Of a DNA stretch of 64,000 bases, positions 29,616 through 54,400 are shown one piece after another (within the stretch, counting starts at the first letter, position 1; every line of letters starts with the position of its first letter). The position numbers and the translations under genes are program-made. The stretch lies in assembly GCA_000004985.1 (NCBI GenBank), contig GG738886.1; one strand, given 5' to 3'. The notes beneath the pieces were generated by a model. It did no database searches. It saw nothing but the letters and a program-made list of their open reading frames with translations, and was not told the DNA's origin. This stretch comes from Naegleria gruberi. Lineage: Eukaryota.

Positions 29616-29852
29616 TTACAAAGAACCTCCTTTCAATTGGAGAATGAGTTGAATTATATCACCACTCTTCAATCCTACATCATTCATTGATGAATCATCA
29701 GGAAGAATTTTTCCATTCATAACCAATCTTTGTTGTGGTATGGTAACTCCAATCTTTTCCTGAATAAGCTTCTTCAAATAGATGAGCTTATCTGAAACTT
29801 CAACATCAAACTTGGAAGCACCACCTGAGAGAGTTCTTACTTGTATTTGCAT
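29616..29852 (-). CDS. ubiquitin-like (beta-grasp) protein ending in GG-SL
   Basis: The 78-aa sequence MQIQVRTLSGGASKFDVEVSDKLIYLKKLIQEKIGVTIPQQRLVMNGKILPDDSSMNDVGLKSGDIIQLILQLKGGSL aligns along its full length with ubiquitin (MQIFVKTLTG...QQRLIF.GK.L.D...L....I.....L.L.LRGG). Confidence 0.6.
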   Translation of the reverse strand: MQIQVRTLSGGASKFDVEVSDKLIYLKKLIQEKIGVTIPQQRLVMNGKILPDDSSMNDVGLKSGDIIQLILQLKGGSL

Positions 29853-30562
29853 TCTTTTTATTCTTGTTATTGTTTAATTTTCTCCTCACCAGCATGCTCA
29901 ACCTTTTATTCATCAGCTTGTATGTTTCTACCTATAGGTTAATATTTTAAAACTGTAGTTCTTCAAGTTCATCCCTAGTGTTGAATGAACACTTTACAAA
30001 AAAAAAATTAGTGTTTCTTTTGAAACTTTGATAATCCAATATTTGGCCAATACTGATTGTCATCATAAGAAATTGTTTGTTCTTCTGTTTGGTGTTGAAA
30101 GTAAATAGGTACTCCTGTTGCTTCTTCAGTCTGAATTTTCAAGTTTTCCAGGATGAGCAATAGTTCATTGACTAAGATTGCTGGCTCGCCTCCATTCCTC
30201 GTTTCCTGCACAATCGAGACCAAATCAAAAGGCATTGAAAGTCTTGGAGTGATACCTTTCATCAGTATGCCAGCCAAATGCCACGTTTCTTTAATTTCTT
30301 GCTAAATCAGCTGAATAATCAAAGGTGGAATATTTGAGGGTGAGAAAGGCATCTAGGAAGGTTGATACATTGACAATGTGTTCTCCCATCAATATTGAGC
30401 AATATTTGATATCAAAAAACAATTTCTTGCCAGCTGTATGCAGCACATTGTAAACAAAGTATTGAAAATTATTACAAAAAAAATGAGTCAAGAGCAAAAC
30501 AACCAAATTGCTGCTCCCGAATCCGGATCAAAATTTCTGATCATCAAAATGAAGATGAAATT

Positions 30563-33719: not shown

Positions 33720-33793
33720 GCCTTCCTAGCTCAGTTGGCAGTAGCGCTGTCCTAGTAAGACAGAGGTCTTGGGTTCGATTCCCAAGGGAGGCA
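33720..33793 (+). tRNA. tRNA-Thr(AGU), copy 1
   Basis: 74-nt cloverleaf: acceptor GCCTTCC/GGGAGGC, anticodon stem CTGTC/GACAG, loop CTAGTAA giving anticodon AGT, T-arm TTGGG-TTCGATT-CCCAA. Confidence 0.88.
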
Positions 33794-34269: not shown

Positions 34270-35874
34270 ATGAAGAAGAGCAGCAGCCACAATTTGATAA
34301 CCCTCTCACAACTCGAACAACACGACGGAGTGAAAAATTCACAACTCTGGATACTTCTCTATGGGAAAGTGTACGATATTACTGAATTTGCTGATAAACA
34401 TCCTGGTGGTCGTGAAATGATAGAAACAGCTTGTGCAAGAGATTCTACTGCACTGTTTGAATCGTATCATTTGTCATCCCATTCGATTAGTAGAATATTC
34501 TTGAGAGATGATGGGAATAATAATAATCAGTCGATGATTAAGTATATTGGTGAATTTGATGAAGAAACAAAGCAAGAAGATGTAAATGATTCCAAGATCA
34601 AGTTTAATTTCACAGATTACAAGATTGCAAAGAAACAAGAAAATAGAACGATGAATATTTATGAAATTTTGAAAGAGCAAATAAGAAATGACTTGTTTAT
34701 TCCTGCCCTTACAAGACAAGATTTTAATCTTAACATTAGAAGGGTTTCTCTCTTGAGATTGTTGAATGCAATCTTCATTTTCTCAGGGTTGTTAGCTTGT
34801 CAGCTTTTATCTCAATACTTGACAGGATTACACCTGTCACTTGCCATTATTCTAGCATTCTTGGGAGGTGTATTTCACCACTTGTCCCTTGTCCACGTTG
34901 CTCATGATGCTGGACATGGAAGTTTCACAGATTTCCCAACCTTGTGGAGAATGATTGGACATGGTTGTTCCTATTTGTTGGGACAATCATTCTATCTTTG
35001 GACCATTAGACATAACATTGCTCACCATGTGTAAGTAGCACTTAACTTTAGCAATTAGATTAACATTTATAGATATACGAATATGAGTGAAATCGATCCA
35101 GATATCAGTATTTATGAAAGAGGTAACGTAAATTCACAAGAAAGATCACTACCTGATAAAAAGTATCCTAAATCAGGAGAGAAAACCTCCACCCCAATCA
35201 AGATTATGTCTGTAACTGGTTCAATTGTATTTTTACCAATCATGTATAGTTTAGTTATTGTTTATATGCAACTTAAGGATTTGGCACATTATTGGAGGAG
35301 ACGTGTTAGTGATGGTGTTGGATTTGCATCCCCAACTTGGAGCTTTACAACATTCCATTTCTATGCAAGTAAGATTGTCTTTGTAATGTACCGATTAATC
35401 TTGCCAATGGTCCTCTTTTACTCTACAGATGGTCATTTCGGTAGAAATGCATTAGAATCTGTACTGATATTTAGTGTTACTGAAGTTGTAGCAGGTCTGT
35501 TATTTGGTTTCTTTTCTCAAATCAATCACATCTCTGAGAAGTGTAAATTCAGTCACTTGAAGGAAGGAGCCCTCAACAATAGAGACGAATTGGATTGGGC
35601 AACTATCCAAATCACAACAAGTGTCGACTATTGTCATGACAGTTATTTGTGGACCTATCTATCTGGGTTTTTGAACCACCAAGTTATTCATCACTTATTT
35701 CCAAGTATTAACCCATGGCTATATCCAAAGATTGTTCCAATCGTTAAGAAAGTCTGTAAGGAGAATAACATTGAATATACCATTTACAACAACTTTTGGG
35801 ATGCTATGACTGCTCATGTGAGACAAGTGACCAGTTTTGTGGATACCAAGAAGCTTCTTGCTGAAATAAATTAA
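34270..35874 (+). CDS. cytochrome b5-fused front-end fatty-acid (or sphingolipid) desaturase, 2 exons
   Basis: Exons 34270..35030 and 35073..35874. The 42-nt intron 35031..35072 runs GTAAGT...TATAG, and splicing gives ...HNIAHH-VYTN-MSEIDPD... The N-terminal cytochrome b5 heme motif is HPGG. Three His boxes are present: HDAGH, HNIAHH and QVIHHLFP (the Q-for-H third box is typical of front-end desaturases). Total 520 aa. Confidence 0.75.
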
Positions 35875-35912: not shown

Positions 35913-35986
35913 GCCTTCCTAGCTCAGTTGGCAGTAGCGCTGTCCTAGTAAGACAGAGGTCTTGGGTTCGATTCCCAAGGGAGGCA
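35913..35986 (+). tRNA. tRNA-Thr(AGU), copy 2, identical to copy 1
   Basis: The 74-nt sequence matches 33720..33793 exactly. About 40 nt of 5' flank and ~12 nt of 3' flank are also conserved. Confidence 0.88.
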
Positions 35987-39329: not shown

Positions 39330-40073
39330 TTTTTTTATAAAATTTGTAATTTTTCAATTGTTAATGCTGAACTCCTAAAGTTTACAAAAATAGATAGTTT
39401 ACAAAAAATAAATTCCGAAACGGCTCCTTGTGTTTCCAATTGTATTGAAGATAAATCGTTCTGTGATCTGGTAATTGATTATCTCGCGAGATTAAAGGAT
39501 GTTCTTACTAATTAGTTTAGAATACCATAAAAAACAATTTATTCGAAACTAAATCTTTGTTGGTTGACTTTCAGATTTAATATCAGGAATGATGAATGGC
39601 ATCACTGCATGAATGAGAGCACACATGTTTCGAATATGACAAATTGTAATTTAATTATTTGAGTGCGTTTTGAGTTCTGGAAAGAAAACTGAATGTTTGT
39701 AGTACAATTCTATATTGTTTTTAATTTTGATTTTTTTTCCACTTCTGTATTTCTAAATATTCAACCAAGTGAATGATTGGAAAATTCCTCATTCTCTTCT
39801 ACCAGAGTTTCTATTCAATGTGATGTCATTAATAGTTTTGTGGATTCTGGTAATTTGAGCCTTCATCCTTAATATTGGTGACATGTCAGCATTTGAGCTT
39901 TATAAAACTTATTCAGTTGGATGTTGAAGCAAGACTAAATTAGTGATTTGCCAAAAATTGGTAATGTTCAAAATAAATTTAATAAGGAAATGTAAAGCAT
40001 GGAAACATTGGTTGTGTGGTTGTTATAAAACTTCTTCAAATATTAATGCTCAACTTGAAAATTAAAATCACAG

Positions 40074-40144
40074 GGGGCGAGGGGGAATCGAACCCCCGGC
40101 CACAGCTTTGGAGGCTGCGATGTTACCATTACACCACCGCCCCT
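40074..40144 (-). tRNA. tRNA-Trp(CCA)
   Basis: The reverse complement GGGGCGGTGGTGTAATGGTAACATCGCAGCCTCCAAAGCTGTGGCCGGGGGTTCGATTCCCCCTCGCCCCC folds as a cloverleaf. The anticodon loop CTCCAAA gives anticodon CCA. Confidence 0.85.
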
Positions 40145-40205: not shown

Positions 40206-41210
40206 TTATTGGATGTTCAAACCAGTTGCCAAAATTGTTTGTTGTCTCAAACTCACAACAACTCGAAGCAATTTAGTTGCCAATTTCGAAGGTTGCTTTC
40301 CACTTGCTTTCTTAGTTTCCTTTACAAGAATTAACAAATCGACTGGAAGAGCAGCAAAAGGAATCACTCCCTTAATCACCAAACTAGCCAACGACAAGGA
40401 AGCACAATAATCATTGGTCATGAGTCCTGAATTCTTGAAATCCTTCTTTTGATTACCTGTTAAAGATTGAACAAAATTGAAAACATTTACAACACAATTA
40501 TTTCCAATGCTAATCATGCAAGAATCCATTTCTGGATATTTGGATCTTATCACATAGATGTGGGAAATTATTTCATTGACCATTTGTGTGTCCTTTGCTA
40601 ACAATTCTTGAACTTGTTTGGCAGTATTCTTGGCATGTTTCCATTCTTTGAAACTGGCCACTACTGCTTCTGTTGTTCCTGATCCAATAACTAGTAATCC
40701 AGTTCCTGTAGCCACTAGAGAACCTCCAAATGTGAGTGGACTTCCCAATAATCCTCCAACTTGGAATTATTTTCATCAAATTCGATTGAGTATGTTGTAA
40801 AACTTACGAATAAGTGCTGCCCCAACAAGATTGGTAGCCGTTCCGTTTGCTTTCTTCTTTGCAGCTTCTTGTTGTTGATAATCTAATGCATGAATCATTT
40901 GTTCTAGTACTGAGATTAATCCCAATCTTTCTTGAATCCATTCTTGAGTTTTTCTTTCAACATTTGAAAGTTGTTCACTCAATAGACTATTGGTTTGATC
41001 TGGTAAGTCATATTTCACAAAAGATTGGTTGTTTGGAGTGAAAGATGGCAATGGCTCCTTTTCATATGGATTAATAACTTGCTCCCTCAACGAGTTAAAT
41101 GATGGATAGCAAACATTACCAGATAAGAGATGTGAACTCTCATTGATTAATGACGAAAGTTCTGGTGCAGGGGTTGAATCTGCATTAGTTTCAGAGTATG
41201 GATAATACAT
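40206..41210 (-). CDS. ApoL (apolipoprotein-L)-like membrane-insertion domain protein, paralog 1, 2 exons
   Basis: Exons 41210..40808 and 40759..40206, with a 48-nt intron 40807..40760 (GTAAGT...CCAAG). Splicing yields ...KKKANGTATNLVGAALI-L-GGLLGSPLTFGGSLVATGTGLLVIGSGTT.... Its paralog at 43765..45090 encodes this stretch in a single exon, which validates the splice. The Gly-rich hairpin plus flanking helices resemble the ApoL membrane-addressing/pore region (GTTIANVVSGSL...LAPFTEGGSL...). Confidence 0.55.
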
Positions 41211-41860
41211 GTTGTTGAAATTGATTGGCTGGTTTTTTTCTTTTTGCTATCAGTAATTGTTTGGCTGATTTGTTTTTATAGTAAGCAAGGCAACAACATA
41301 TTTTAGAATCTTAATGGAAAAGGAATATGGAATGGAGTGTAAAAATTAAAGTGCTACGAAGTGTGAAATCACCCAAAAAGGAACAAGTGCTCGCTTTTCC
41401 TGTTAATTGCAATCAACCTTTGCCGACTCGCAACAGAAAGAGATTGTAAGTGGTCCATTTTGTTTAAGGAATTCAATGATTTTCAAAGTTTCCAATTTCT
41501 GTCTTTCCAAATAGAGCTTTTCAACCATTCTCAAAATTGACAATCCATTACAATTCAATAATGAATGGAAACTTGAAAATTACAATTTTTATAAATTTTA
41601 ACTTAATTTTTGACTTATTTCAATATTCACATAAAGAAAATTCGCTTTATAATATCTCCAAATACAATCCCTTACTATGGATATTTAGGTTCATGTACTT
41701 GTTTGGCGCCAAATCACTACAAATTTTTTGTCTTTATTTAAAAAAAAATTGTGCTGGCTGTTGAGGAACATTCACGTGAAAAGCTTCCCTGAAAACGTTT
41801 TATTCTTTGTACCCACCAAGTTATTTGTATATAAATAATCGGAAAATTCTTAGAGAGGAG

Positions 41861-42043
41861 ATGGCAGATTTTACAACTGAGGAATATGTTGCTGTTGCAC
41901 TGTGTTCAGCCTTTGTGATTTCTTTGATATTGATCGTAATTTCTATTGTGGTTGGAGTAAAACTTCATGCCAGAAGAAAACTGCATCAAATTCGAGCACT
42001 TGTTGATGAACAGCAGGAATCGGAAGAAACAAAACAAAATTAA
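41861..42043 (+). CDS. small single-pass membrane protein (60 aa), hypothetical
   Basis: ATG at 41861 in the context gagaggagATGg. MADFTTEEYVAVALCSAFVISLILIVISIVVGVKLHARRK... has one clear TM helix and a basic stop-transfer. Short ORF, low confidence. Confidence 0.3.
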   Translation: MADFTTEEYVAVALCSAFVISLILIVISIVVGVKLHARRKLHQIRALVDEQQESEETKQN

Positions 42044-42420
42044 CAAGCTAACAAATCGGAATTTTTGAATACTAGCTATAACAACGTTCTGAATTTCTTG
42101 CACTCAACATAATGAGATAGAGTTTACTATACAAAATATATTGTAGTCAAGCAAGAAAGAAAATACTAAGGAATTGAATCAATTGATCATCTCTTCGCAC
42201 ATTGAACCAAAAGAATTAACCTAAATTCGCCGAACAAATAACAATTATGGCTACCAGTTCTTGTAAGGATTGCAGAAAAAAACTTTAAAAAAATAACACA
42301 ACTTGTTCTTCTGATCTTTAGACAGGCTAATCATCAAAACGTCGTTGTCATCTAGGAAATAACACACTTTGTTATACATCATCATCCTCATCTACTTAAT
42401 ATTATCAACAAAATACAATA

Positions 42421-42924
42421 ATGGCTGAAGACGGAAGAATTCAAACAGTTTGGGTTATGATTTTATTGTTCACTTCTTGTTGTTTCTTTACATTTGTTGC
42501 TATCCTTTTCGGCATTATTGCTTCTGCAATTACCGACCCTAACGAAATGTCTAATGCCATGTCTTGTACAGTGCTGAAACCACAAGTGAATTGTAAAACA
42601 TGTGAAGGAACCCATACTTGTTGCGAAGCTATTGTAAAAGTTGCCCCTGGAACACTCTTTGCTAATGTAACCAATTTCCAACCAATAAGAACAACTGAAG
42701 AATTTAGTAGTGAATCAACCTATTATTCATATGCCGCCAATTCTACAGTAACTTGTTATGTAGGAATTGACCCAGAAAGTGAAGAGGCTCACTATGCCAA
42801 GTATGATGGACCAAAAGTTGAATTGAAGACTGTTGCTATCGTCACTGGTTGCATTGCCATTTGTTATACTGCTGGTTTGATTTTGGCCCCATTCTTCTCC
42901 AAATCTCTTCAACAAACTCACTGA
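42421..42924 (+). CDS. hypothetical two-TM membrane protein with Cys-rich extracytoplasmic loop
   Basis: 167-aa ORF with an aatacaataATG context. The N-terminal TM is VWVMILLFTSCCFFTFVAILFGIIASAI, the C-terminal TM is VAIVTGCIAICYTAGLILAPFF, and the loop holds 8 Cys. Confidence 0.45.
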   Translation: MAEDGRIQTVWVMILLFTSCCFFTFVAILFGIIASAITDPNEMSNAMSCTVLKPQVNCKTCEGTHTCCEAIVKVAPGTLFANVTNFQPIRTTEEFSSESTYYSYAANSTVTCYVGIDPESEEAHYAKYDGPKVELKTVAIVTGCIAICYTAGLILAPFFSKSLQQTH

Positions 42925-43258
42925 GAAAACTAATTGTACATTTTGCTAATAATACTTCGTACAAACCTATTATCCAAAAATTCTATTGAATGTTATTTGG
43001 AATTTTAAATTGCAATCATGTGAAATATTTCCGAAATCAAAAATAAAAAAATAAAAAATTAATTTTAATTCAATTTGGCAATACTGCTATTTGTATGTGG
43101 TATGGGGCAGAGAACAGTGAATAATAATGGCAACTCAACTCTTACCATCAAAGTTGAACTCTAGCATCAGTAAAGTTACTGGGCTATTTCTAGCTCTTTT
43201 TATGGTAAGTTCAATAAACTTGTTCTAATACTATTTTCTAGTGAAAATTACCAAGAAA

Positions 43259-43329
43259 TCGGGTGTGGTATAGTGGTAGCATTCCAGACTGTCACTCTGG
43301 CGACCCGGGTTCAATTCCCGGCACTCGAG
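43259..43329 (+). tRNA. tRNA-Asp(GUC)
   Basis: 71-nt cloverleaf: TCGGGTG...CACTCGA acceptor with discriminator G, anticodon stem CCAGA/TCTGG, loop CTGTCAC giving anticodon GTC. Layout matches animal tRNA-Asp, including the 5' T. Confidence 0.85.
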
Positions 43330-43764
43330 ATTAATTTTTGACTCTATCTCCACTACTTAAGTTTTAATTTTTTCCTCATATGAATACTGGCATGTAATCA
43401 CCTATTTTACAATTTTCAAATCTTCATCTCCTAATTCCATAGAAAAAATAGTCAAAGGTTAAACTCTTTAATTTTTCTTTCAAAAAATAATGGATGAATT
43501 TTTTGGCGTATATCATTGGTACTGATTATTCTTGAAAAGGAAAAAGACTACAGCACCACAGGTTCCCAAGTTGTCTCCAACCTCAGTACTGATGTGGCTC
43601 GACGATGCTTAACTTCTCAAACGGGATGAGGTGCATTATGTAGCCAATCATTATTTTAAAATCTTAATATTGAATAAGAAATGATTTGGATATTGTTTTA
43701 AATTTCTTTGAATCTGGTACTTGTAATTAAAATCTGGTATGATTGTGGATAAAACTACAATTTA

Positions 43765-45090
43765 TTAAGGTAAGAAAGTACCAGTTGCTTTTGTTGTTTG
43801 TGCCTTGATTGATTCCAAGATTGGTGTTAATTTGGCAGCCAATTTAGAAGGTTCCTTTCCATTTGCCTTTTTAGATTCTTCAACCAAAATAACCATATCG
43901 ACAGGAATGGAGATGATTGGTACCATACCTTTAATCATTAAACTGGTCAAACTCATAATACCTGTAGCACCATTTGTCAATCCACCACGACTATCCAATC
44001 CTTGGTGTCTATGACCAATAAGGGCATCAACAAATTGTACAACTCCAATAGTGTTTGAGCCAACAGAAATGGTACGAGTATCAATGTATGGATCAGTAAC
44101 TCTGTACTCGTAAATCTTTTTAATCATATCATTGACATATTGAGTATCCTTTGCCAAGAGTTCTTGAATTGCCTTTGCAGATTTCTTGGCATGTTTCCAT
44201 TCGACAACTGAGGCAACAACACTTGTGGTTGTACCAGCTCCAACACATCCAAGACCAGCTCCTGTAGCCAAAAGCGAACCTCCAAGTGTAAAAGGAGCTG
44301 CTACGATACCTCCCACAATCAATGAAGCACCAACAATGTTTGTGGCAGTACCACCAACTTTGGCCTTTGCTGTTTTCTTTTGTTTCTTATCCAATGCACA
44401 GATCATATCTTCAAGCATTTTAATGATTTCCATACGTTTCTTGAGCCATTCTCTGGCAGATTCTTCAACAGCAACCAATCTCATTGCTTGTATCATGTTG
44501 TTATTAATTGGTGGAGGAACAACAGTGGTTGTTTGTTGCACTACAGAAACAGGTGTCATTGGTGAGACAGTCTTTTCAACAGTTGTGGTTGTTTGTTGTA
44601 CAAATTGACCAGTTGGAGTCATTGGTTGGCCGAATTGAGATTGCATCATTTGAGGTTGTTGTTCCATGTATTGAGGATTCATACTTGGTTGTTGTGGATA
44701 GCCATGTTGCATCATTTGAGGTTGACCATATTGTGGAGGTTGTTGGTACATTCCTTGCTGTTGTGGATAACCTTGTTGGTATTGTTGATATTGTGGTTGT
44801 TGCATACCTGGTTGTTGAGGTTGTTGAGGTTGTTGTTGGTATTGTTGTGGTTGCATACCTTGTTGTTGTGGATAGCCTTGTTGTGATTGCATCATTTGAG
44901 GTTGACCATACTGGGATTGTTGCATACCTTGTTGTTGTGGATACATTCCTTGTTGAGGTTGTTGTGGATAACCTTGTTGAGGAGGGTATTGTTGATATTG
45001 TGGTTGTTGGACTCCAGGTTGACCATATTGTGGAGGTTGTTGCATACCTGGTTGAGGAGTTTGTGGAGAGTATTGTTGTGGTTGGTGCAT
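43765..45090 (-). CDS. ApoL-like membrane-insertion domain protein, paralog 2, with N-terminal prion-like Q/P/G/M/Y-rich repeat domain
   Basis: The first ATG is at 45090 ([10 protein letters not shown]...); the ORF-track start at 45252 is probably UTR. About 180 aa of imperfect PQQGYPQQ(G)MQQ repeats come first. The C-terminal 230 aa are colinear with the 40206..41210 protein ([68 protein letters not shown]...[21 protein letters not shown]...[39 protein letters not shown]). Confidence 0.55.
44560..45090 (-). repeat. imperfect tandem codon repeats encoding PQQGYPQQ(P/G)MQQ prion-like tract
   Basis: Repeated ccttgttg/ggttgttg nucleotide units on the plus strand. They generate several long spurious plus-strand ORFs (44186..45143) composed of V/L/W-rich reverse-frame translations. 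Confidence 0.6.
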
Positions 45091-45564
45091 TTTGTTTTGT
45101 GTTGAAAAATTATATGACTCAAGTCTGTTATTTAGCCTGTTGATTCGTATGAATTCTTTGGTCCGTTGTAACATTCGGAATGTCATTGTCCAATAAAAAT
45201 ACAATGAGAAAGTGACAGAAACAAGTTGCAAAATACAATTGTGGCAATTCAAATATGATTTGTGTGTTAATTGCCAAAAAGTCGAATTATTGTCTTACGA
45301 AAGGAAACATATGCATGTTACTTGGTTGATTTGATCAAGAAAATTGGCAATTCACATCCAAATGTGATTTGATAACTTGTTTGTGCATTCTAAAAGTATT
45401 CTGTTGTATCAACCAAGTTGCTGTTGTAAAGTCTAACTACAGTCAGAGTTGGTTTTAATTGAAGTTTTCCCATAATCCACGTACAGATTTCTTTTTAATT
45501 GCATATGGCACTTCCAAAGCTCCTCTCAATACTTTCAGAATATCAATTCCCATACTAACAAGTT

Positions 45565-46658
45565 TTAGTTTAAATCAAATATACTAGTAACTACGTACAA
45601 TATCCCAATAATACCTGCAATTTGTCCTAGTAGTCCTTCTATTGATGATGTAACCACCTCTTGAATCTTATTCTCATTCAATGAAGAATAGGCAACTGAA
45701 ATTACCACAACATGAGGATCAATCTCAGTCAATTCGACAATGGACAATAACGAATCCCATCTTACAAAAACTGTATCTGGATTTTCTACTGAGGGTTTCA
45801 GTGTTTCTGTCAAAACTTTGGTCAAGATGAAATAATTGTCAACCCCAGAAATGGCAAAATTAGTTTCTGAGAAAACTTTTGGAATGGTTCCAGGCTCATG
45901 GAAGCTTACTTGTAGACCGAATCGTGTATCTCTTTCTATTGGAACAGGAGGAACACTAAAATAGAATGAAATAGTACCAGCATATCCCGTCGCGTTGGCT
46001 TTTTGAAAGCTTAATATCAAAGATTAATAAACTACACATACCTGCAAGAAGAGATGATCCATTGTTGAATACATAGCATGAGAATAATTGACCATTCTGA
46101 AAGATGGTTACAAAATCATACGGAATTTCAAAAGTTTCAACAATTCCCAGCTCACCATTCACTTTGGAAATTAAACTTTAAGGTTAAATTACAATAGCTA
46201 CAATCAACCATAGCATTCCAGTTGCATATCGAAATGGCTGGAAAGTACAATGGCACCGACTCTACAAAGGATGTTGATGTTGTTGGATTGTTTTGAGAAG
46301 TGATGAATTGCTGAGAGGCATCTACACTATACCAAATGCATAGGGCAATTGAGATGAACCAGCCAATAATTGTTATCACTTCTCCAATAGTAAAAGGACA
46401 ACTAGCTAGCAGCCTAATGGTGGATGTCTTATTTTTCAAATCCTTCTCTTCAAAATTCGAGAAAGCTATAGGCATTGTCTTGTAATCTTTTCCTTCATCT
46501 TGATTGGTTTGATAATGCACCTGTCTGTTTCCTTCATTAACATTCATCGATGGTTGTTCCTCCTCTTGTATGTTGTTTTGTTCTACGATATTGTCATTCC
46601 GAATGATAGTATTATCAACAACATCGTCATCATGGTGAGGTTGAATTTGTTGGGACAT
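45565..46658 (-). CDS. ENaC/degenerin (amiloride-sensitive Na+ channel, ASC) family-like protein, 3 exons
   Basis: Exons 46658..46193, 46161..46042 and 45998..45565. Intron 46192..46162 is 31 nt with a GTAATT donor; intron 46041..45999 is 43 nt with a GTATGT donor. Total 339 aa. TM1 is FTIGEVITIIGWFISIALCIWYSV. The post-TM1 hallmark YFPAISICNWN matches FPAVTICN. Pre-TM2/TM2 is IEGLLGQIAGIIGILYVVTSIFDL, resembling the GxS selectivity region. The 31-nt intron is the shortest inferred, so that junction is less certain. Confidence 0.5.
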
Positions 46659-46733
46659 TTTATTGTAGTTGGATGGCGCGGAGCAATTGCATTATTTGGT
46701 ATCATGTGAAGTTTGCAAGTTTTCCACTTGTTG

Positions 46734-47763
46734 TTAGTTGTACAAGAGCACACCCAAATCATCAACAACCAACAGCTCACCACTATGAACATTCAAACAA
46801 CAACCAGACAATCCATAAGGTCTACAGGTATGTCTGAGCGAGAAGGAATAATCAAATCTGTGCCTCACGACAAGAGTGTTACTAGCCTTGCAAGAGATGA
46901 TGATAAAGTCTCTATCAATGGTAATGTTCAGCCATATTTTAGAGTTTACCTCCTCCTCAACTGTGAATATCTTGACTAATTCATCATCCCGAATGCACAA
47001 TACTGTGTTGCAGGTTGTGATGAAACATTCACCAACATCATTGAAAGCTAGGGACAGAGGATCTATCAATTTAACAATACCTATTGATGAGAATGTAGAA
47101 ACAAGTGTGCCATCGATTGGATTTAGTTTGACAACTCTATTGTTGCCCGTATCACAAACAAATAATGTAGATTTGTTGTTATTATCATAGTAGTCATCAT
47201 CATCAAATGGAATGCCAAACCCTTCATTGCCAGCAAACTCACATGATGAATTTCCTCGAGGGGATTTACCATGATGGTACATGGCAATACCATTCAGAAA
47301 TTTACCATTAAACCTGCTGGTCCACACGGGTGAGTGATTGGAGGTTGATAATTGTTCCTTGATATTGTACTTTAATACCTTATCATTTCTGGTGGTTACA
47401 TATAAATCATCATCGCCATCAATACACATACGCACAGGGCTGGCAAATACCTTGAGTGTGTCGGTACTCTTTCGAATGAAGGTCAAAGAATTGAATTCTC
47501 TTATTGCCACAATCACAGACGAGAATCAAGTTGTGCCACTGTGAGACTTTTACATCTGATGCAAAGTAAAATCTCTGATTGTCTCCTCCGCTATATTCTG
47601 TGCCAAGCTGACCAATTTGATTGAATTGGTAGGAGTAAGTTGGTTTTTGTTGTGGGCCGAGTTGTTGTTTCAACTTGGAAAGCAGCAGCGAAATTGATGG
47701 AGTTGATTGGACAGCATCATCCGGATGAAATATAAAAAATGTATCTACAAAACTGTTGGACAT
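46734..47763 (-). CDS. NHL-repeat beta-propeller protein with apparent frameshift near 47455..47480
   Basis: ATG at 47763 (aataaaATGtcc; MSNSFVDTFFIFHPDD...). NHL signatures are ILVCDCGNKRIQFFDL (upstream frame) and LFVCDTGNNRVVKLNP, FASPVRMCIDGDDDLYVTTRNDKVLKYN (downstream frame, 47516..46734). The two frames overlap over 47419..47516 with no intron-compatible GT-AG pair, implying a 1-nt indel. Confidence 0.45.
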
Positions 47764-48423
47764 TTTATTAGAATGTTGAAGTAAATGTATGTAATGGAAC
47801 GTACCTAAAGCATCGTGATATTGAATGTTTTTTTTCAAAATTACTTTTTAATTTTTCTTTTATTTTTCAAATTTTAAAGTTTAACGGTAAATATGGGAGG
47901 TGCTGAGATTATTTTTGTTGGTAAAACCAAACAACGTTGCAATTCTCTAAAACCGATTCAATCATCATCTTGCTATACAATCACAAAGAACTCAATTCAA
48001 GGTTTAATTCATCATTAATTAAATTGAAATACCAAATGCAAGTTTTGATAGGACTTCCATTCAATGATTTACTGTTTCGACTTGCTATAGTAATCCTATA
48101 TCCCATTAAGGAATTTGGACCCCTCGTTTATCTCTCTTAATCCCATTCGGAAAGCAATCACCAAAACAACCTGAGAAACTAAGCTTTTGATCCTTAAGGA
48201 AAGCCTCAATTTCAAAAAAATTGGTGTAAGAAGAGACAGGGAGAGAATGCGATTCTTTTTGAAAAATCCAAATACTGGATATTATGATAAGGGGGCATCT
48301 ATATGTTTGTCCTTATCGGCCTTATTAGCAAGGTTGTTATCCTTATCATCATTATCTTTATTTTCAACATCAGGATTAATATCCTTAAAAAGTTGTGGTG
48401 ATGAGGAATTTTCTTCTATTAAG

Positions 48424-51400
48424 ATGCTATCATCATCACCGTCATCATTAACAAGTTTAAATAATTCTAATGGGATAAGAACAAGATCAAAGTATCATTC
48501 TTCATCATCCCTTGTACTTTTATTCATCATTATTTCAATGATACTAGTTTCATGTTTCATGTGTGAACCAATTCAGGCCATCTCTTGTAGTGGAATAGAT
48601 TCCAACGACCTCACTGCTTGCTCTGGGATGGGGACTTGTATTCAGGATGAAACATGCCAATGCCTTAACGGATATTCAGGCGCTAATTGTGAGTATGTGG
48701 AGTGTTTTGGAGTTACAAATGAACCTGGTAATGAGGTTTGCTCTCGTCACGGGCAGTGTTCATCACCAGACAATTGTCAATGCGATTCTGGGTATTATGG
48801 CTCTACATGTTCCATCACAACTTGTTTTGAGAAGTGGAGTAACTTGTCGAATAGCAACAACATTTGCTCTGGGCATGGTACTTGTTCATCATTGGACGTT
48901 TGTGAATGTAATGCTGGATACTTTGGTAGCGAATGTGAAAAGGATCTTTTCGCTGGGTACAAACTAATTAGTATTAGCCCAGTAGTGATAGCAAAAAATT
49001 CACCTGACAATGTTGAATTGAAAGCAAGTATTGCCCTTCCTTCAATGGTTCTATCCTCTGCCTACTCACACGATGGTTCACAACCTTTACCATTTGTTGT
49101 TTCCAACTCTACAACTTCTATTGTTATTACAGATACGGTAAATGATGCTTTTGGTCAATTGTTAGTTCAGGAAGCAGATAGAAAAGCAGGTGAACTTTAC
49201 AATCTTCCATGTGATTTTAACATTTCCAATCCCGACCAAGAACTCAATAGTTTGACCATCATTAGAAATGGTGGAGTCTATTGTTTTCCAAATGGTGTAA
49301 CTATAAGAGGACACACATTTATTATTGTCGGTACAGAAACAGTCCTTTTCAAATCTCCTTTTGTATATTATTATGGAGCTTCCTTTTACTATCTGGAATG
49401 TGCCTCCTATAGGAACGTTTTCTGGTTAACCTATGACCAAGGAGATAATGGAAACTTCTTTTCTGGAGATATTCATGGAACTGTTATTGGAATTTCTCCT
49501 TATCATGGAATTCAACTTTACGATAACTTGGTGGGGGCTGTATGGTACACTGGTGGAACAGATATGATTCTATTCGATGTGAATATTTTACCACCAATAA
49601 CCTTCAATTCAAATGAAAGTTTTAGTCGAGATGATTGCATGGAAACAAGTTGTTATGGAATTTCATTCCGATTGAATAATACTTGCTTTGGAAGAGGTCA
49701 TTGTGTGAAGAATGATACTTGTTTGTGCAATACGGATTCATACGGAAGTAATTGTTTAATTTCAATTTGTAATGGTGTCTACGGAAATGAAACCAATGTA
49801 TGTAGTGGTCATGGTGAATGCCAAAGTAAGGACAGTTGTGAGTGCGAAAGTGGTTATTATGGAAATTGGTGTGAATTGACCACATGTTTTGGAGTCCAGA
49901 ATGACCAGCCGAATACTTGTAATGGGCATGGATTGTGTTCCAAATTGGATACTTGTGAATGTGCTTCTGGTTTTGGATATGGTGGTTCAAGTTGTGAAAT
50001 TCCAATCTGTAATGGAACTATGGCTAATGAAAGTAGTGTTTGTCTATCAAGAGGTCATTGTGTCCAACCAAATATGTGTAGTTGCCAATCAAGTTATTCA
50101 GGGTCAAACTGTGAAATTGCTAATTGTTTTGGAATTATTTCAAATGACAGCTCAGTTTGTTCTGGTCATGGGTCTTGTAATTCTGTAGATACTTGCACTT
50201 GTTCCATTGAATACTACGGAGCCGATTGCTCACAATTTGATTGTTATGGCATTCAATCAGTGAATAGTTCTGTTTGTTATGGAAGAGGACAATGTATTAA
50301 TGTTAATACTTGTTCATGTTCACAAGGATACTATGGCAATGAATGTGAAATCTCCATGTGTGATGGTATTTTGGGCAATTCCTCCCAAGTTTGTTCTAGT
50401 TATGGACAATGCAAGGATACGGATGTGTGTGATTGCCAATTGGGCTATTTTGGTGTGTTTTGTAATGAAACAACATGTAATAGTATAGCAATGAATGACT
50501 CAACAGTATGTAATGGACAGGGAACTTGTTGGCCATTGGACACATGTGTTTGCTCCAATGGATATGATGGCTCTAATTGTCAAAATCCTATTTGCTTTGG
50601 AATTGTTTCCACTAATACCTCTGTTTGTGGAGGTCATGGAGTTTGTTCGCAACCAAATATTTGTCAATGCAACCAGGGATATTACGGATCCCAATGTGAA
50701 ATAGTCACCTGTTCTGGTATCATGTCAAATGGATCAACAGTGTGTTCAGGACAAGGGCAGTGTTCTGATATGGACATATGCCAATGCAACAACCATTACT
50801 ATGGATCTAATTGTGAAAAGTTTGATTGCTTTGGTGTATCCTCTCTCTTAAACACCTCATGCTCTGGTCATGGTACATGTCTTGATTACAATACTTGCCA
50901 ATGTTACTCTGATTATTATGGAAATAATTGTGATGTTACCAAATGTTATGGTATTTTCAGTAATTCATCCAATGTTTGTTCATCTAAGGGAAGTTGCCAT
51001 GTACGAGATACTTGTATCTGTTCGAATAATTACCACGGTTCTTATTGTAACATAACAAGTTGTAATGGAGTTTATTCTAATGATGCTTCAGTTTGTTCCG
51101 GTCATGGTTCATGTATTGGGTACGACACTTGTCAATGTTTGAGCGATTATTCTGGAAGTAATTGTCAAGGAGAAATAGTTGACCCATTTGCTGGATTTAG
51201 AATTATTTCAGATTCTTCAGTTTCAATTTCTATTGATTATTTCCTGACAGATTGGCAACCAGTTTTGCAATCCTATACTCGTTACTATGCCTCAAGTTTA
51301 CTTCTTAAAAGTATTTCCTATTTGGATTCAAATATTCAATATCTTCCACATTCGAGTGCAGTTATTCTAAACAGCACAAGTGCACAGGGCATCAATATTG

Positions 51401-54400
51401 TCAACAAGATGAAAACCATCAAGTCCCAGTTATTGGCTTCATTAACCTGCACTAAAACTTACACAAACACTAACTCTCCAAATACTTTTATAATCAAACA
51501 TGGAGGTGTAATTTGTTTCACAGGAGGAATGACATTCGGGCCAGAAAGAACTATTATCATTGTGGGAACAGAGCCTGTCATATTCAAACTCCCATCCTTG
51601 CAGTATAGTGCTCTTAATATTGTTTTTTTGGAATGTGCCTCATATAGAAACTTTTTCTGGATTTTGGATTCAAATAGTTTTATTAAGGGAGCAGATAAAA
51701 CAAAGAATTATCAACCACCAATTCATGGAACATTTATTCAACTCTCTGGAACTATTTCTTTGAGAGGTTACCTTGCAGGTAGTGTATGTGCTTCGAACAT
51801 CAATACTCTTCTCCACGAAGTCACATTTTATGATCCAACCACTTTTGACCCTTTCCAAAGTGTCACTTCACAATGTAATTACACCCTCTGTTACAACATT
51901 CTATCAAATAATCAATCAGTGTGTTCAGGTAAAGGTAATTGTTCTGATTACAACACTTGTGTTTGTAATACGGATAGTTATGGATCTGATTGTTCTTTAT
52001 TTAAGTGTAACGGAATTTTGAGTTCAAACTCAACTTTTGTTTGTAATGGAAGAGGTAAATGTGTAGGGCCAGATGTCTGTTCCTGTAATCCAGGTTATTA
52101 TGGAGATTTTTGTGAGCTGACCACATGTAATGGAATTGAAAATACCTCGCCTCTTGTTTGTAATGGAAGAGGTGCCTGTAATCATTTCAATAGCTGTTCC
52201 TGTAGCTCTACATTTGGGTATGGTGGATCAGATTGCGATATTCCAATTTGCTATCAAAAACTTGCAACCAATCGTTTAGTTTGTAGCTCAAGAGGTGATT
52301 GCTTGGGACCAAATGTTTGTAATTGTACCGAAACTTATCTTGGTGATAATTGTCAACTGACCACTTGTGCTGATATACTTTCAAACTCTTCTCTTGTTTG
52401 TTCAGGCTTTGGATCATGTGTTGGCTATAACAATTGCACCTGTCATACAGGTTTCTATGGAGAAACTTGTGCAGAATATGATTGTTTCGGAGTTAATAAG
52501 AATAATCCAAATGTTTGCTCTTCAAAAGGCGAATGTATTACTGTTAATAACTGCACATGTCAAGATGGCTTTTTGGGTAATAATTGTTCCTACACTACTT
52601 GCTTTGGAGTAAGAAGTGATTCGCCTACAGTTTGTAATTCGAAAGGTTCCTGTAGAGCCAAAGATGTTTGTGAATGTTGGAATGGATATTTCGGAAGTAA
52701 TTGTACTCTGACAAGTTGTGGAGGGATCTATTCAAATGATAGCTCTGTGTGTAATGGACATGGTTCTTGTTGGCCAGCGGAAACCTGCACTTGTTTATCT
52801 CAATATGGATATACAGGTCAATTGTGTGAAATTCCAATTTGTTATACCATAGCAGCTAGTGATCCTTTAACCTGTTCTTCTCATGGCTCCTGTGTTGGTG
52901 TCAATACATGTGAGTGCCAAGCAAATTATACTGGATCCAAGTGTCAAGTTACATCATGTCAAGGAATTCTATCAAACGGCTCACTTGTTTGTTCTGGGCA
53001 TGGTTCATGTATTGAACATGATAATTGTACATGCCTAGCTGGTTACTTTGATACCGCCTGTAATCAATTCACATGTAATGGAACCAACTCCCAAGACAGC
53101 TCAGTTTGCTCTGGAAAAGGAAGTTGCGATTCATATAATAATTGTTCTTGTCAAGCGGGCTATTATGGACCTAATTGTGAAAAGACAATGTGTAATAACA
53201 TTTTGAGTGATAATCCATCTGTGTGTACATCTCGTGGTAATTGTATTGCCCCAGAAGTTTGCAGTTGTAATGAGACTTATTTTGGTACTAATTGTGAGTT
53301 GACTACTTGCAATGGAACTGTTTCAAATAGCAGCTCGGTATGTTCAGGATCAGGAGTTTGTTGGCCATTCGATACCTGCACTTGTTACTCTGACTTGGTC
53401 AGAGAATTCGAAGGTCAATGGTGTGAAAAACGTTTGTGGGATCCTTTCGCTGGATATCGAATGGTATCTCACAATGGTTTAGTTTACCATTTTGATGATA
53501 ACAACAATTTCTACACTCCTGATATTCATACCAATACTAGATATTATCGTTCAAGTATGATTTTAGATATACTTACAAAGATAACACCTACACTCAATTA
53601 CACATCTGATAATGGAGCTCACATTGATAGTGTTAATACTCCCAAAGCATCAGCCTTGGCTGCACTTATGAAAAAGAAAGGTAATTCCATGTGGACACTT
53701 CCATGTACTAAAACAGTTAACAATTCAAGTGATTTGCCATGGATTAGTAAGAGTGAAATTATGATTCGTCACGGAGGTGTTTTCTGTTTCAATATTGAAG
53801 CTTCTTTTCACAACAATATAACCATTATCATAGTTGGAGCTGAACCTGTTGTTATGAAAGTTCCTTCAATTCAATACTCTGCAGTCAACTTTGTATTTGC
53901 AGAATGTGCTTCTTATAGAAATTTGTTTTGGTTTATCACAAGTTATAATCCAAGTTTCATTCAAGGAGGAAATAGAGGGACTGGATATGAGCCTCCAATT
54001 TATGGAACTTTCTTCCCAACCTCAGGTGGTTCCTTCCAACTTGCTGGTCCTTTTGCAGGAAGTGTTTGGGTAACCGGTAATGCATGGACTGTTTTTATTG
54101 ATGTTACTGTTTATCCACCATTGTCAACTGATCCATATGAACCAACAGTTGGTCAATTTTGTAATTATACTCAATGTTTCAATGTTAAATCTAATTTGAA
54201 TACTACATGTTCCGGTAGAGGTCAGTGCATTGATTATAATACATGTGTTTGCAATGCCGATGCTTATGGAGTTGATTGTTCAATCTCCAAGTGTAATGGC
54301 ACATTTAGTAATGTATCAACTGTTTGTAATGGACATGGTTCATGTATCGCTAAAGATACTTGCCAATGTAATACAGGATACTATGGAGAATGGTGTCAAT

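What the first reader, a model, noticed from the sequence alone, without database searches (positions are those of the whole stretch)
40206..45090. Two paralogous ApoL-like (Bcl-2-like / pore-forming membrane-insertion) genes flanking a tRNA/small-membrane-protein interval; one is fused to a prion-like domain
Genes at 40206..41210 and 43765..45090 (both minus strand) share a ~230-aa C-terminal region. An amphipathic helix (EW(I/L)..R(L/M)..I..LE.MI.ALD...) precedes the Gly-zipper hairpin GTATN(L/I)VGA(A/S)LI.GG......P(L/F)T(F/L)GGSL(V/L)ATG.GL...G.GTT, which is followed by (E/K)[17 protein letters not shown]. This matches the layout of the human APOL membrane-addressing/pore region (KGTTIANVVSGSL...GLAPFTEGGSLVLL...KKWWTQAQAHDL). 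ApoL-type domains are best known from vertebrate innate immunity and programmed cell death. A duplicated pair in an AT-rich protist genome is notable, especially as paralog 2 carries a Q/P/G/Y prion-like N-terminus and paralog 1 needs a splice, which the paralog confirms. The pair could be a protist pore-forming or defence module. The interval between them holds tRNA-Trp, two small TM-protein ORFs and tRNA-Asp.
Basis: partly seen in the sequence, partly recalled or inferred. Interest (0 to 1): 0.65.

Follow-up and report, generated by a model that had tools for sequence, protein, structure and literature searches.

The report
Naegleria ApoL-family pore-protein gene pair
The two genes are real relatives of the animal apolipoprotein-L pore-forming immunity proteins in the amoeboflagellate Naegleria gruberi, but one already carries that name in the reference genome, so this is mostly a confirmation.

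Summary
Two minus-strand paralogs (40206..41210 with a 48-nt GT..AG intron at 40760..40807; 43765..45090 as one ORF) share a ~237-aa domain (about 50% identity; exon-2 part E=6e-59).

The ApoL reading holds too:
- Paralog 2 passes the Pfam ApoL threshold (39 bits against a 25.9 cut-off).
- A Naegleria-only profile aligns end to end with animal ApoL proteins (hhalign 99.7%, E=9e-27).
- 61 of 62 relatives found with that profile are Pfam ApoL.
- The most conserved features are the uncharged hydrophobic hairpin and an Asp that appears to correspond to human APOL1 D348. These are the two elements shown experimentally to drive APOL1 membrane insertion and cation-channel gating.

Corrections:
- The window is Naegleria gruberi NEG-M (Heterolobosea), not an amoebozoan.
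- Paralog 2 is already in RefSeq as "apo L domain-containing protein" (XP_002674159.1), in a probably mis-fused 701-aa model.
- tRNA-Trp lies outside the interval between the genes.
- The Q/P-rich tail is shared by most Naegleria ApoL copies from other species, so it is not a special fusion.
- The "module" idea has no support. The copies look like lineage-specific duplicates, and a third, truncated copy lies at about 30.0-30.5 kb.

Paralog 1 seems unannotated. Function is inferred, not shown. Links to ClyA-type toxins are inconclusive.

The parts
43765..45090 (-). Paralog 2, a 441-aa ApoL-family protein in a single ORF. Residues 16-441 are identical to the C-terminal part of RefSeq XP_002674159.1 'apo L domain-containing protein [Naegleria gruberi]'.
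44479..45090 (-). Low-complexity N-terminal tail of paralog 2 (aa 1-204). Over aa 1-205 the composition is Q 37%, P 17%, M 9%, Y 8%, G 8%. There are two PPxY motifs (aa 19 and 118), and a 9-nt in-frame length polymorphism separates the two strains.
43768..44478 (-). ApoL-homology domain of paralog 2 (aa 205-441).
44203..44355 (-). Paralog 2 hydrophobic helix-turn-helix hairpin (aa 246-296), with no charged residue. It is the counterpart of the APOL1 membrane-insertion domain.
   Evidence: PMC8358165
43867..43953 (-). Paralog 2 second hydrophobic helix with the embedded invariant Asp398 (codon 43897..43899) and the motif D-x-V-x-L-V-x-E-S-K. It is the counterpart of the APOL1 pore-lining region.
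   Evidence: PMC8358165
40808..41210 (-). Paralog 1 exon 1 (aa 1-134 plus the first base of codon 135). It carries an S/P/N-rich N-terminus, the amphipathic helix and the first hairpin helix.
40760..40807 (-). Paralog 1 intron, 48 nt, GTAAGT...AG, phase 1. It sits inside the hairpin-coding region and is identical in a second strain.
40206..40759 (-). Paralog 1 exon 2, including the stop codon. It encodes the second hairpin helix, the EWKHAK helix and the pore-lining-like helix with Asp275 (first codon of the stretch 40323..40340).
43259..43329 (+). tRNA-Asp(GTC), the only tRNA between the two paralogs.
40073..40143 (-). tRNA-Trp(CCA), 63 nt downstream of the paralog 1 stop codon and outside the interval.
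42421..42924 (+). Bystander gene in the interval: a 167-aa predicted two-TM protein, identical to XP_002674087.1 (NAEGRDRAFT_80745). It has no Pfam family.
41861..42043 (+). Bystander ORF in the interval: a 60-aa single-pass TM peptide. It is not on record as a protein, and its gene status is unverified.
30011..30527 (-). Third, truncated ApoL-related piece. Segment 30011..30301 matches Naegleria profile positions 176-235 (E=4e-11), and 30294..30527 matches positions 131-168 weakly (E=0.6). No hairpin part was found. It is probably a relic.

Best explanation
The two genes are duplicated members of the apolipoprotein-L (ApoL, Pfam PF05461) family in Naegleria gruberi. Each encodes a protein with no N-terminal hydrophobic signal-type segment, so it is probably cytosolic. 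Its conserved ~237-aa helical domain contains, in order: an amphipathic helix; an uncharged Gly/Ala/Thr-rich helix-turn-helix hairpin (turn P-x-T-x-G-x-S-L); a long amphipathic helix (EWKHAK...); and a second hydrophobic helix carrying an invariant Asp, followed by E-S-K-K and a short C-terminal helix. By homology with human APOL1-4 (inferred, not shown here), the hairpin would insert into a target membrane. Because it lacks the acidic residues that make APOL1 and APOL2 insertion acid-dependent, insertion should occur at neutral pH, as for APOL3-5. The Asp-bearing helix would line a cation-selective, pH-gated channel, or at higher dose destabilise the membrane. In a bacterivorous amoeba the most likely use is as a membrane-permeabilising effector, aimed at ingested or intracellular microbes or at the cell's own organelles in a death or stress programme. 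The low-complexity N-terminal tail would serve as a regulatory or partner-binding region. The tandem arrangement reflects local gene duplication, not a two-part machine.
For: Family membership (shown): Pfam ApoL scores 39.0 bits against a 25.9 cut-off for paralog 2, and 41.2 bits for the domain alone. hhalign of the Naegleria profile against animal ApoL-like proteins gives 99.7%, E=9e-27, over 218 columns spanning query 2-230. BLASTP against a mammalian ApoL-like protein gives E=5e-10 and aligns [14 protein letters not shown] with IGVDVVNLVRDSKE. An exhaustive HMM search with the Naegleria profile finds 992 proteins at E<=1e-3, and 61 of 62 sampled full-length hits are Pfam ApoL. RefSeq already names paralog 2 an apo L domain protein. 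Mechanistic elements (shown as conserved, function inferred): across 62 distant relatives the only invariant or >=90% conserved positions that mean anything are glycines, Thr and Ser of the hairpin and the Asp of the last hydrophobic helix. Hydropathy finds exactly these two hydrophobic regions, and paralog 2's hairpin has no charge. PMC8358165 reports that the first two APOL1 TM helices form the membrane-insertion domain, that E201/E209 make insertion acid-dependent while APOL3-5 with A/G at those sites insert at neutral pH, and that D348 in the pore-lining region is conserved in all APOLs and controls pH gating and cation selectivity. Native gene under constraint: there is a spliceosomal intron and a native scaffold, with orthologues in N. 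fowleri, N. lovaniensis and Acrasis. Between two strains, paralog 2 has 5 synonymous and 1 non-synonymous codon changes (none non-synonymous within the ApoL domain), and paralog 1 has 7 and 6. Effector-type role (circumstantial): relatives are fused to caspase, RING, ricin-B lectin and kinase domains, and the family shows lineage-specific expansion.
Against: No experiment or expression data exist for any Naegleria ApoL, and no paper was found. Paralog 1 alone is below the Pfam cut-off (15.4 bits) and is the most divergent copy, with weaker constraint. The Naegleria proteins match Pfam ApoL only from model position ~66 onward, so the N-terminal part of the animal domain is absent and behaviour may differ. 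The AF2 model is only moderate (mean pLDDT 68.6, and about 50-60 across the hairpin). The neighbouring genes are ordinary and give no functional hint. Human APOLs have also been linked to non-immune roles, so the immune or death reading is the weakest step.
Confidence: 0.75

Rival explanations
1. Housekeeping intracellular channel or membrane-dynamics factor. Under this reading the Naegleria ApoLs are constitutive organelle membrane proteins (for example Golgi, ER, mitochondria or contractile vacuole) that conduct cations or shape membranes, with no defence or death role.
For: There is no N-terminal hydrophobic signal-type segment, which resembles the intracellular human APOL2-6. The paralog 2 domain is under strong purifying selection between strains (0 non-synonymous against 5 synonymous changes). 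The neighbouring genes are ordinary metabolic and membrane genes.
Against: The family distribution across eukaryotes is patchy, and expansion is lineage-specific. Relatives are fused to caspase, RING, lectin and kinase domains. This pattern is more typical of conflict or effector genes than of core housekeeping channels.
Confidence: 0.3
2. Two-component pore. Under this reading paralogs 1 and 2 are co-evolved partners that assemble into a heteromeric pore, like the binary and tripartite ClyA-family toxins (YaxAB, Nhe, Hbl, Mak, Ahl), which are encoded side by side.
For: The two genes lie on the same strand within 5 kb. There are weak sequence hits to MakE and an Nhe-L1-like protein (E=0.0025-0.004 with the Naegleria profile, 1e-4 to 3e-4 with the wider profile). 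ClyA, AhlB, AhlC and NheA recur among non-significant fold hits.
Against: The genes are separated by two other ORFs and a tRNA. An NJ tree groups the three N. gruberi copies together, so the duplication is recent and species-specific. In N. fowleri and N. lovaniensis the ApoL genes lie on contigs of different lengths, so they look dispersed. The ClyA-family hits rank alongside paramyxovirus F fusion-peptide/heptad-repeat matches and designed helical bundles, so they may be compositional.
Confidence: 0.07
3. Paralog 1 is a decaying duplicate on its way to becoming a pseudogene, and only paralog 2 is functional.
For: Paralog 1 is on the longest branch. It is below the Pfam cut-off on its own. 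It has 6 non-synonymous against 7 synonymous differences between strains. It has lost the Q/P-rich tail. No annotated protein was found for it. A truncated third copy in the window shows that decay does happen at this locus.
Against: The reading frame is intact after splicing. The intron is perfectly conserved. All 57 positions invariant in the alignment of Naegleria ApoL sequences that includes both window paralogs are present in paralog 1. A non-synonymous to synonymous ratio of 6:7 is still well below the roughly 3:1 expected without selection (my estimate).
Confidence: 0.15
4. The similarity to ApoL is a chance or compositional match of a generic glycine-zipper membrane hairpin, or the genes are animal contamination or a recent transfer.
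For: The hairpin is Gly/Ala-rich and low in complexity. The wider profile also hits viral fusion peptides.
Against: The profile-profile alignment covers 218 of 237 columns, including the non-hydrophobic helices and the D-x-V-x-L-V-x-E-S-K motif. The genes sit on a 358,576-bp N. gruberi scaffold, have local base composition and a 48-nt intron, and have orthologues in three other heteroloboseans.
Confidence: 0.02

Closest known systems
Human APOL3/APOL4/APOL5-type apolipoproteins L (intracellular, neutral-pH inserting members of Pfam PF05461)
   Same: The order of elements is the same: amphipathic helix, uncharged hydrophobic hairpin (membrane-insertion domain), long helix, then a hydrophobic helix with the conserved Asp followed by S-K and a C-terminal helix. 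The Naegleria proteins lack any N-terminal hydrophobic signal-type segment, as expected for intracellular members, and there are no acidic residues in the paralog 2 hairpin.
   Different: The Naegleria proteins match only Pfam model positions ~66 onward, so the N-terminal part of the animal domain is replaced by a low-complexity tail. Identity to animal members is only about 20-28%. No activity data exist.
Human APOL1 (trypanolytic, kidney-disease-associated cation channel)
   Same: The Asp of the last hydrophobic helix appears to correspond to D348, the residue reported to control pH gating and cation selectivity (PMC8358165). From my own recollection of the APOL1 C-terminus (SFFLVLDVVYLVYESKHLHEGAKSE...), whose numbering is self-consistent for S342, D348, Y351, E355, I384 and N388/Y389, E355-S356-K357 are matched too.
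   Different: APOL1 is secreted with a signal peptide, has acidic residues in the hairpin that make insertion acid-dependent, has an extra predicted TM helix (257-273), and has a long C-terminal leucine zipper. None of these is seen here. Paralog 1 has a single Glu near the end of the hairpin.
Other heterolobosean ApoL proteins (N. fowleri FDP41_001341 and FDP41_005037; N. lovaniensis C9374_008068, C9374_005332 and C9374_002482; Acrasis kona AKO1_006503 and others)
   Same: They share the same domain at 48-54% identity (Naegleria) or about 30% (Acrasis). Most have Q/P-rich or P/S/T-rich N-terminal tails.
   Different: The N. gruberi copies form their own clade. Some Acrasis members carry an N-terminal RING finger.
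ClyA-family alpha-pore-forming toxins (ClyA, NheA, MakE, AhlB/C) and type III translocators (SseC, IpaB)

Membership tests
ApoL (Pfam PF05461) | Score above the curated Pfam gathering threshold (25.9 bits): paralog 2 | tested here: met
   39.0 bits, E=8.2e-10 for the full protein. 41.2 bits for the domain alone.
ApoL (Pfam PF05461) | Score above the curated Pfam gathering threshold: paralog 1 on its own | tested here: not met
   15.4 bits, E=0.013. ApoL is still the top hit. Membership rests on homology to paralog 2 (E=6e-59 and 6e-13) and on paralog 1 retaining all 57 positions invariant across the aligned Naegleria ApoL sequences.
ApoL (Pfam PF05461) | Homology to bona fide animal ApoL proteins over the whole domain, not only the hydrophobic hairpin | tested here: met
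   hhalign 99.7%, E=9e-27, 218 columns. BLASTP against a mole ApoL-like protein gives E=5e-10 over 201 aa. 61 of 62 relatives found with the Naegleria profile are Pfam ApoL, and many match model positions 65-296 of 298.
ApoL (Pfam PF05461) | Membrane-insertion domain: two adjacent hydrophobic helices joined by a tight turn | tested here: met
   Hydropathy peaks fall at aa 246-296 (paralog 2) and 122-171 (paralog 1). AF2 models two long helices with a turn at PFTLGGS. The hairpin Gly, Thr and Ser positions are the most conserved in 62 relatives.
ApoL (Pfam PF05461) | Pore-lining helix with the conserved Asp (APOL1 D348) | tested here: met
   The Asp is invariant in all Naegleria copies and >=90% conserved in 62 relatives. 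It aligns with the conserved Asp of animal ApoLs. PMC8358165 states that D348 is conserved in APOL1-6. The exact equivalence to D348 rests on my recalled APOL1 sequence.
ApoL (Pfam PF05461) | N-terminal part of the ApoL domain (Pfam model positions 1-65; helical bundle in APOL1) | tested here: not met
   Matches start at model position ~66. Upstream sequence is a low-complexity tail. The same holds for many non-vertebrate relatives, which start at positions 57-73.
ApoL (Pfam PF05461) | C-terminal leucine-zipper or coiled-coil helix | tested here: inconclusive
   A C-terminal helix is predicted (domain residues 212-235, pLDDT 82-91) and aligns with the animal C-terminal helix. It is short, and no heptad or coiled-coil test was run.
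ApoL (Pfam PF05461) | Cation-channel or membrane-permeabilising activity | not testable with these tools
   Needs planar-bilayer or liposome assays.
ClyA-family alpha-pore-forming toxins | Significant sequence or fold match to ClyA, Nhe, Hbl, Mak or Ahl components | tested here: inconclusive
Bcl-2 family / colicin pore-forming domain | Profile or fold match to the Bcl-2 or colicin helical bundle | tested here: not met
Type III secretion translocators (Pfam SseC, PF04888) | Score above the Pfam gathering threshold (30.2 bits) | tested here: not met
   15.0 bits, E=0.019 for paralog 2. 6 of 62 relatives reach E<=1e-3, best 1.6e-6.
Prion-like (Q/N-rich) domain | Composition and predictor score typical of yeast-type prion domains | tested here: inconclusive
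   Q is 37% over aa 1-205 and 43% over aa 1-160, with Y and G at 8% each. However, P is 17% and N is not among the eight commonest residues. No PLAAC-type predictor was available. Similar tails occur in most other Naegleria ApoL copies.

The most novel reading that the evidence does not exclude
ApoL may be an ancient, widely but patchily distributed eukaryotic membrane-permeabilising effector family. It is found in Heterolobosea, dinoflagellates and animals, and is reported in an algal virus. Its core (uncharged hairpin plus Asp-lined helix) would pre-date animals. The Naegleria proteins would be minimal versions acting as cell-autonomous antimicrobial or cell-death executioners in a free-living phagocyte. 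The family might also share ancestry with bacterial ClyA/Mak-type toxins or type III translocators. If true, N. gruberi would give a simple, non-animal system for dissecting the APOL channel mechanism that underlies trypanosome killing and APOL1 kidney disease.
Probability: 0.2. Interest if true: 0.65.

Novelty: new member of a known kind. Interest (0 to 1): 0.35.

Why it matters
ApoL proteins are studied almost entirely in primates, for trypanosome killing, APOL1 kidney disease and APOL3 killing of bacteria. Their channel mechanism is still debated. Here, compact homologues in a culturable amoeboflagellate keep what appear to be the two experimentally defined functional elements: the insertion hairpin and the D348-type Asp. 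They lack the animal-specific N-terminal part, the signal peptide and the long zipper. That defines a minimal conserved core and gives a cheap comparative test of which features are essential. It also shows that the family is not a vertebrate invention.

The practical gain is modest. Paralog 2 already carries the ApoL name in RefSeq and Pfam. The new items are:
- an apparently unannotated, intron-containing paralog;
- a truncated third copy;
- a probable gene-model fusion error in RefSeq.

Tried and rejected
- **Exact look-ups.** Paralog 2 and two other window ORFs gave nothing in the contig index. The species was identified only through cluster look-ups.
- **Spliced paralog 1.** The exon-2 fragment was used instead.
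- **First AF2 model.** With 8 sequences it was too poor to use (pLDDT 54.7). The second, with 62 sequences, was moderate (68.6).
- **ClyA/Mak kinship.** I considered it and left it open. The same sequence search ranks paramyxovirus fusion proteins higher.
- **Virus vector idea.** This was prompted by the ApoL gene of the Tetraselmis virus TsV-N1. Three scans of viral contigs found no relative, and one of them could not be run.
- **Literature.** Searches for Naegleria or protist ApoL, locus tags and family evolution found nothing relevant.
- **Bcl-2 and colicin readings.** No supporting hit.
- **Contamination or recent transfer from animals.** Rejected because of the intron, the scaffold context and the heterolobosean orthologues.

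Full report
**What is in the sequence**

The window has 33-38% G+C. Paralog 2 is an uninterrupted minus-strand ORF, 43765..45090, 441 aa. Paralog 1 occupies 40206..41210 on the same strand and is broken into two ORFs. Reading the DNA shows why:
- a GTAAGT donor follows ...GCACTTATTC;
- an AG acceptor lies 48 nt downstream;
- removing 40760..40807 gives a 318-aa protein.

At the junction this protein reads AALI-L-GGLLGSPLTFGGSL. That is collinear, without any gap, with [19 protein letters not shown] of paralog 2. A contig from a second, 97.5%-identical strain in a metagenome carries the same intron with no substitutions. BLASTP between the paralogs gives 51% identity, E=6e-59, over the exon-2 part and 37%, E=6e-13, over the preceding helix.

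One detail is wrong. tRNA-Trp(CCA) is at 40073..40143, downstream of paralog 1 and outside the pair. Only tRNA-Asp(GTC), at 43259..43329, lies between the genes.

**Whose genome it is, and what is already annotated**

- The closest proteins are all from Naegleria.
- Cluster look-ups show that residues 16-441 of paralog 2 are identical to the C-terminal part of XP_002674159.1 / EFC41415.1 / D2VPE2. This is a 701-aa N. gruberi NEG-M protein on a 358,576-bp scaffold, already named "apo L domain-containing protein".
- The 167-aa ORF at 42421..42924 is identical to XP_002674087.1 on the same scaffold.

The window is therefore N. gruberi (Heterolobosea), not an amoebozoan.

The 701-aa model joins an upstream ORF (45565..46020) to Met16 of paralog 2. 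[quoted passage not shown] It continues for 15 more, mostly hydrophobic, residues to its own stop codon, so I judge the fusion to be an annotation artefact. This is inference, since no transcript data are available here.

Paralog 1 seems unannotated. The spliced sequence is not in the 15-billion-protein collection. A homology search with it returns only a metagenomic exon-2 ORF.

**Is it ApoL?**

- Pfam ApoL (PF05461) is the best hit for both proteins. Paralog 2 scores 39.0 bits, E=8e-10, against the cut-off of 25.9. Paralog 1 scores 15.4 bits, below the cut-off.
- A profile of Naegleria sequences only was run against 1.84 billion representative proteins. It found 992 proteins at E<=1e-3 and 108 at E<=1e-10, and many cover the profile from about position 3 to 226.
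- Of 62 sequences aligned (paralog 2 plus 61 full-length relatives from that search), 61 match Pfam ApoL, with a best E of 5e-40.
- Several relatives cover Pfam model positions 65-296 of 298.
- Named relatives come from Acrasis kona, an octocoral, a snail, starfish, lampreys ("apolipoprotein L3-like"), a frog ("apolipoprotein L3-like"), axolotl, many teleosts, a mole and the dinoflagellate Crypthecodinium.
- Profile-profile comparison of the Naegleria alignment with eleven animal or animal-type ApoL-like proteins gives 99.7% probability, E=9e-27, with 218 aligned columns spanning Naegleria positions 2-230.
- Direct BLASTP against a mole protein gives E=5e-10.

The homology is thus domain-wide and not confined to the Gly-rich hairpin.

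**Anatomy and likely mechanism**

Hydropathy finds two hydrophobic regions in each protein:
- the hairpin, at paralog 2 aa 246-296 and paralog 1 aa 122-171;
- a later helix, at paralog 2 aa 380-408 and paralog 1 aa 257-285, which contains an Asp.

Across 62 distant relatives, the only invariant or >=90% conserved positions that mean anything are hairpin residues (four Gly, Thr in P-x-T, Ser) and this Asp.

Pant et al. (PMC8358165) summarise the experimental model for human APOLs:
- The first two transmembrane helices are the membrane-insertion domain.
- Glu201 and Glu209 make APOL1 and APOL2 insertion acid-dependent.
- APOL3-5 have Ala or Gly at those positions and insert at neutral pH under cis-positive voltage.
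- Asp348 in the pore-lining region (aa 335-355) is conserved in all APOLs and sets pH gating and cation selectivity.

The Naegleria Asp aligns with the conserved Asp of the animal proteins, within a shared motif:

| Source | Motif |
|---|---|
| Naegleria | [11 protein letters not shown] |
| Mole | D-V-V-N-L-V-R-D-S-K-E |

My recollection of the human APOL1 C-terminus places this Asp at 348, and the numbering is self-consistent for six known positions. That link rests on memory, not on a tool result.

Paralog 2's hairpin has no charged residue. Paralog 1 has one Glu near its end. Neither protein has an N-terminal hydrophobic signal-type segment.

I therefore infer a cytosolic protein that inserts its hairpin at neutral pH and forms an Asp-lined cation channel, or disrupts membranes at higher dose. 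The AF2 model from 62 sequences has mean pLDDT 68.6. It shows two ~60-residue antiparallel helices with the hairpin at their tip, plus the Asp helix and a C-terminal helix. It is compatible with this picture but not precise.

**Biological role**

This is the weakest step. Three points favour an effector role (antimicrobial or cell death):
- the family is patchily distributed (see the relatives listed above);
- copies expand within lineages, and the NJ tree groups the three N. gruberi copies apart from three fowleri/lovaniensis groups;
- relatives are fused to caspase (P0071), RING (Acrasis P0016), ricin-B lectin (P0125) and protein kinase (teleosts) domains.

Two points favour a housekeeping role:
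- the neighbouring genes are ordinary (cytochrome b5/desaturase, fatty-acid hydroxylase, a weak channel-like match and giant EGF-repeat proteins);
- paralog 2 is under strong constraint, with 5 synonymous and 1 non-synonymous differences between strains, none non-synonymous in the ApoL domain.

Paralog 1 shows 7 synonymous and 6 non-synonymous differences. That indicates weaker but still apparent constraint.

**The "prion-like fusion" and the "module"**

The first ~205 residues of paralog 2 are 37% Gln and 17% Pro, with Met, Tyr and Gly at 8-9% each. They contain two PPxY motifs and a 9-nt length polymorphism between strains. Comparable Q/P-rich tails precede the domain in most ApoL copies of N. 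fowleri and N. lovaniensis, and a P/S/T-rich tail does so in Acrasis. The tail therefore looks like an old, compositionally conserved feature of the heterolobosean proteins rather than a fusion peculiar to this gene. Its high proline content argues against a classical amyloid prion domain, and no predictor was available.

Nothing supports a functional pair:
- the genes are separated by two ORFs and a tRNA;
- the duplication looks species-specific;
- in the other Naegleria species the ApoL genes lie on contigs of different lengths, so they look dispersed.

**More distant relationships**

Sequence searches of the PDB hit Vibrio MakE and an Nhe-L1-like protein across the hairpin, where [10 protein letters not shown] is almost identical. 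The E-values are:

| Query | E-value |
|---|---|
| Single sequence | 0.02 |
| Naegleria profile | 0.0025-0.004 |
| Wider profile | 1e-4 to 3e-4 |

**Verdict**

What is new is small:
- an unannotated, intron-containing paralog;
- a truncated third copy at 30011..30527;
- a probable mis-fused RefSeq model;
- the recognition that the hairpin and the D348-type Asp are the conserved core from Naegleria to mammals.

No publication on non-animal ApoLs was found, so the biology is unexplored. I rate it a new member of a known kind, of moderate-to-low interest.

Noticed in passing
window 30011..30527 (-): A third ApoL-related piece. ORF 30008..30277 (...AGILMKGITPRLSMPFDLVSIVQETRNGGEPAILVNELLLILENLKIQTEEATG...) matches the Naegleria profile at positions 176-235 (E=4e-11). 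A collinear weak piece covers positions 131-168. No hairpin part was found, and the upstream region overlaps a plus-strand ORF. It is probably a truncated relic of a further duplication.
   Followed up: partly
window 45045..46020 (-): RefSeq XP_002674159.1 (701 aa) splices an upstream ORF, which weakly matches the sodium-channel (ASC) family, onto Met16 of paralog 2. The upstream ORF continues through a hydrophobic tail to its own stop codon, so the model is probably a false fusion of two genes.
   Followed up: partly
window 45565..47516 (-): [quoted passage not shown] It may be the last exon of a multi-exon channel gene immediately upstream of paralog 2. The neighbouring minus-strand ORFs (46152..46658 and 46734..47516) have no Pfam match.
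   Followed up: no
window 44479..45090 (-): Paralog 2's Q/P-rich tail contains two PPxY motifs (aa 19 and 118), which are potential WW-domain ligands. It also differs by a 9-nt in-frame indel (QQP) between two strains. The N. fowleri and N. lovaniensis copies share an LPPLP motif in their tails.
   Followed up: no
window 48187..58956 (+) and 59149..63924 (+): Two very large ORFs (3589 and 1591 aa) packed with teneurin-type EGF repeats. The second also has a REJ domain, as in polycystin and sperm receptor proteins.
   Followed up: no
window 33720..33793 and 35913..35986 (+): Two tRNA-Thr(AGT) genes bracket a split cytochrome-b5/fatty-acid desaturase gene (ORFs 34270..35034 and 35083..35874). 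Seven tRNA genes are scattered through the window.
   Followed up: no
window 29616..29852 (-): A 78-aa ubiquitin-like ORF (MQIQVRTLSGG...LKGGSL) lies directly downstream of the truncated ApoL relic.
   Followed up: no
relatives P0071, P0125, P0016/P0017, P0167-P0190 (not in window): ApoL domains elsewhere are fused to a caspase domain (metagenomic P0071), a ricin-B lectin (P0125), RING fingers (Acrasis kona) and protein kinases (many teleosts). A dinoflagellate (Crypthecodinium cohnii) also has a family member, and the algal virus TsV-N1 is reported to carry a PF05461 gene.
   Followed up: partly
ApoL hairpin and following helix (paralog 2 aa ~275-350): A wide ApoL profile hits the fusion peptide plus first heptad repeat of paramyxovirus F proteins (E=1.7e-5) ahead of MakE. 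Both have a Gly/Ala-rich hydrophobic stretch running into a long amphipathic helix. This is probably convergence, but it shows how easily this architecture produces weak cross-family hits.
   Followed up: no
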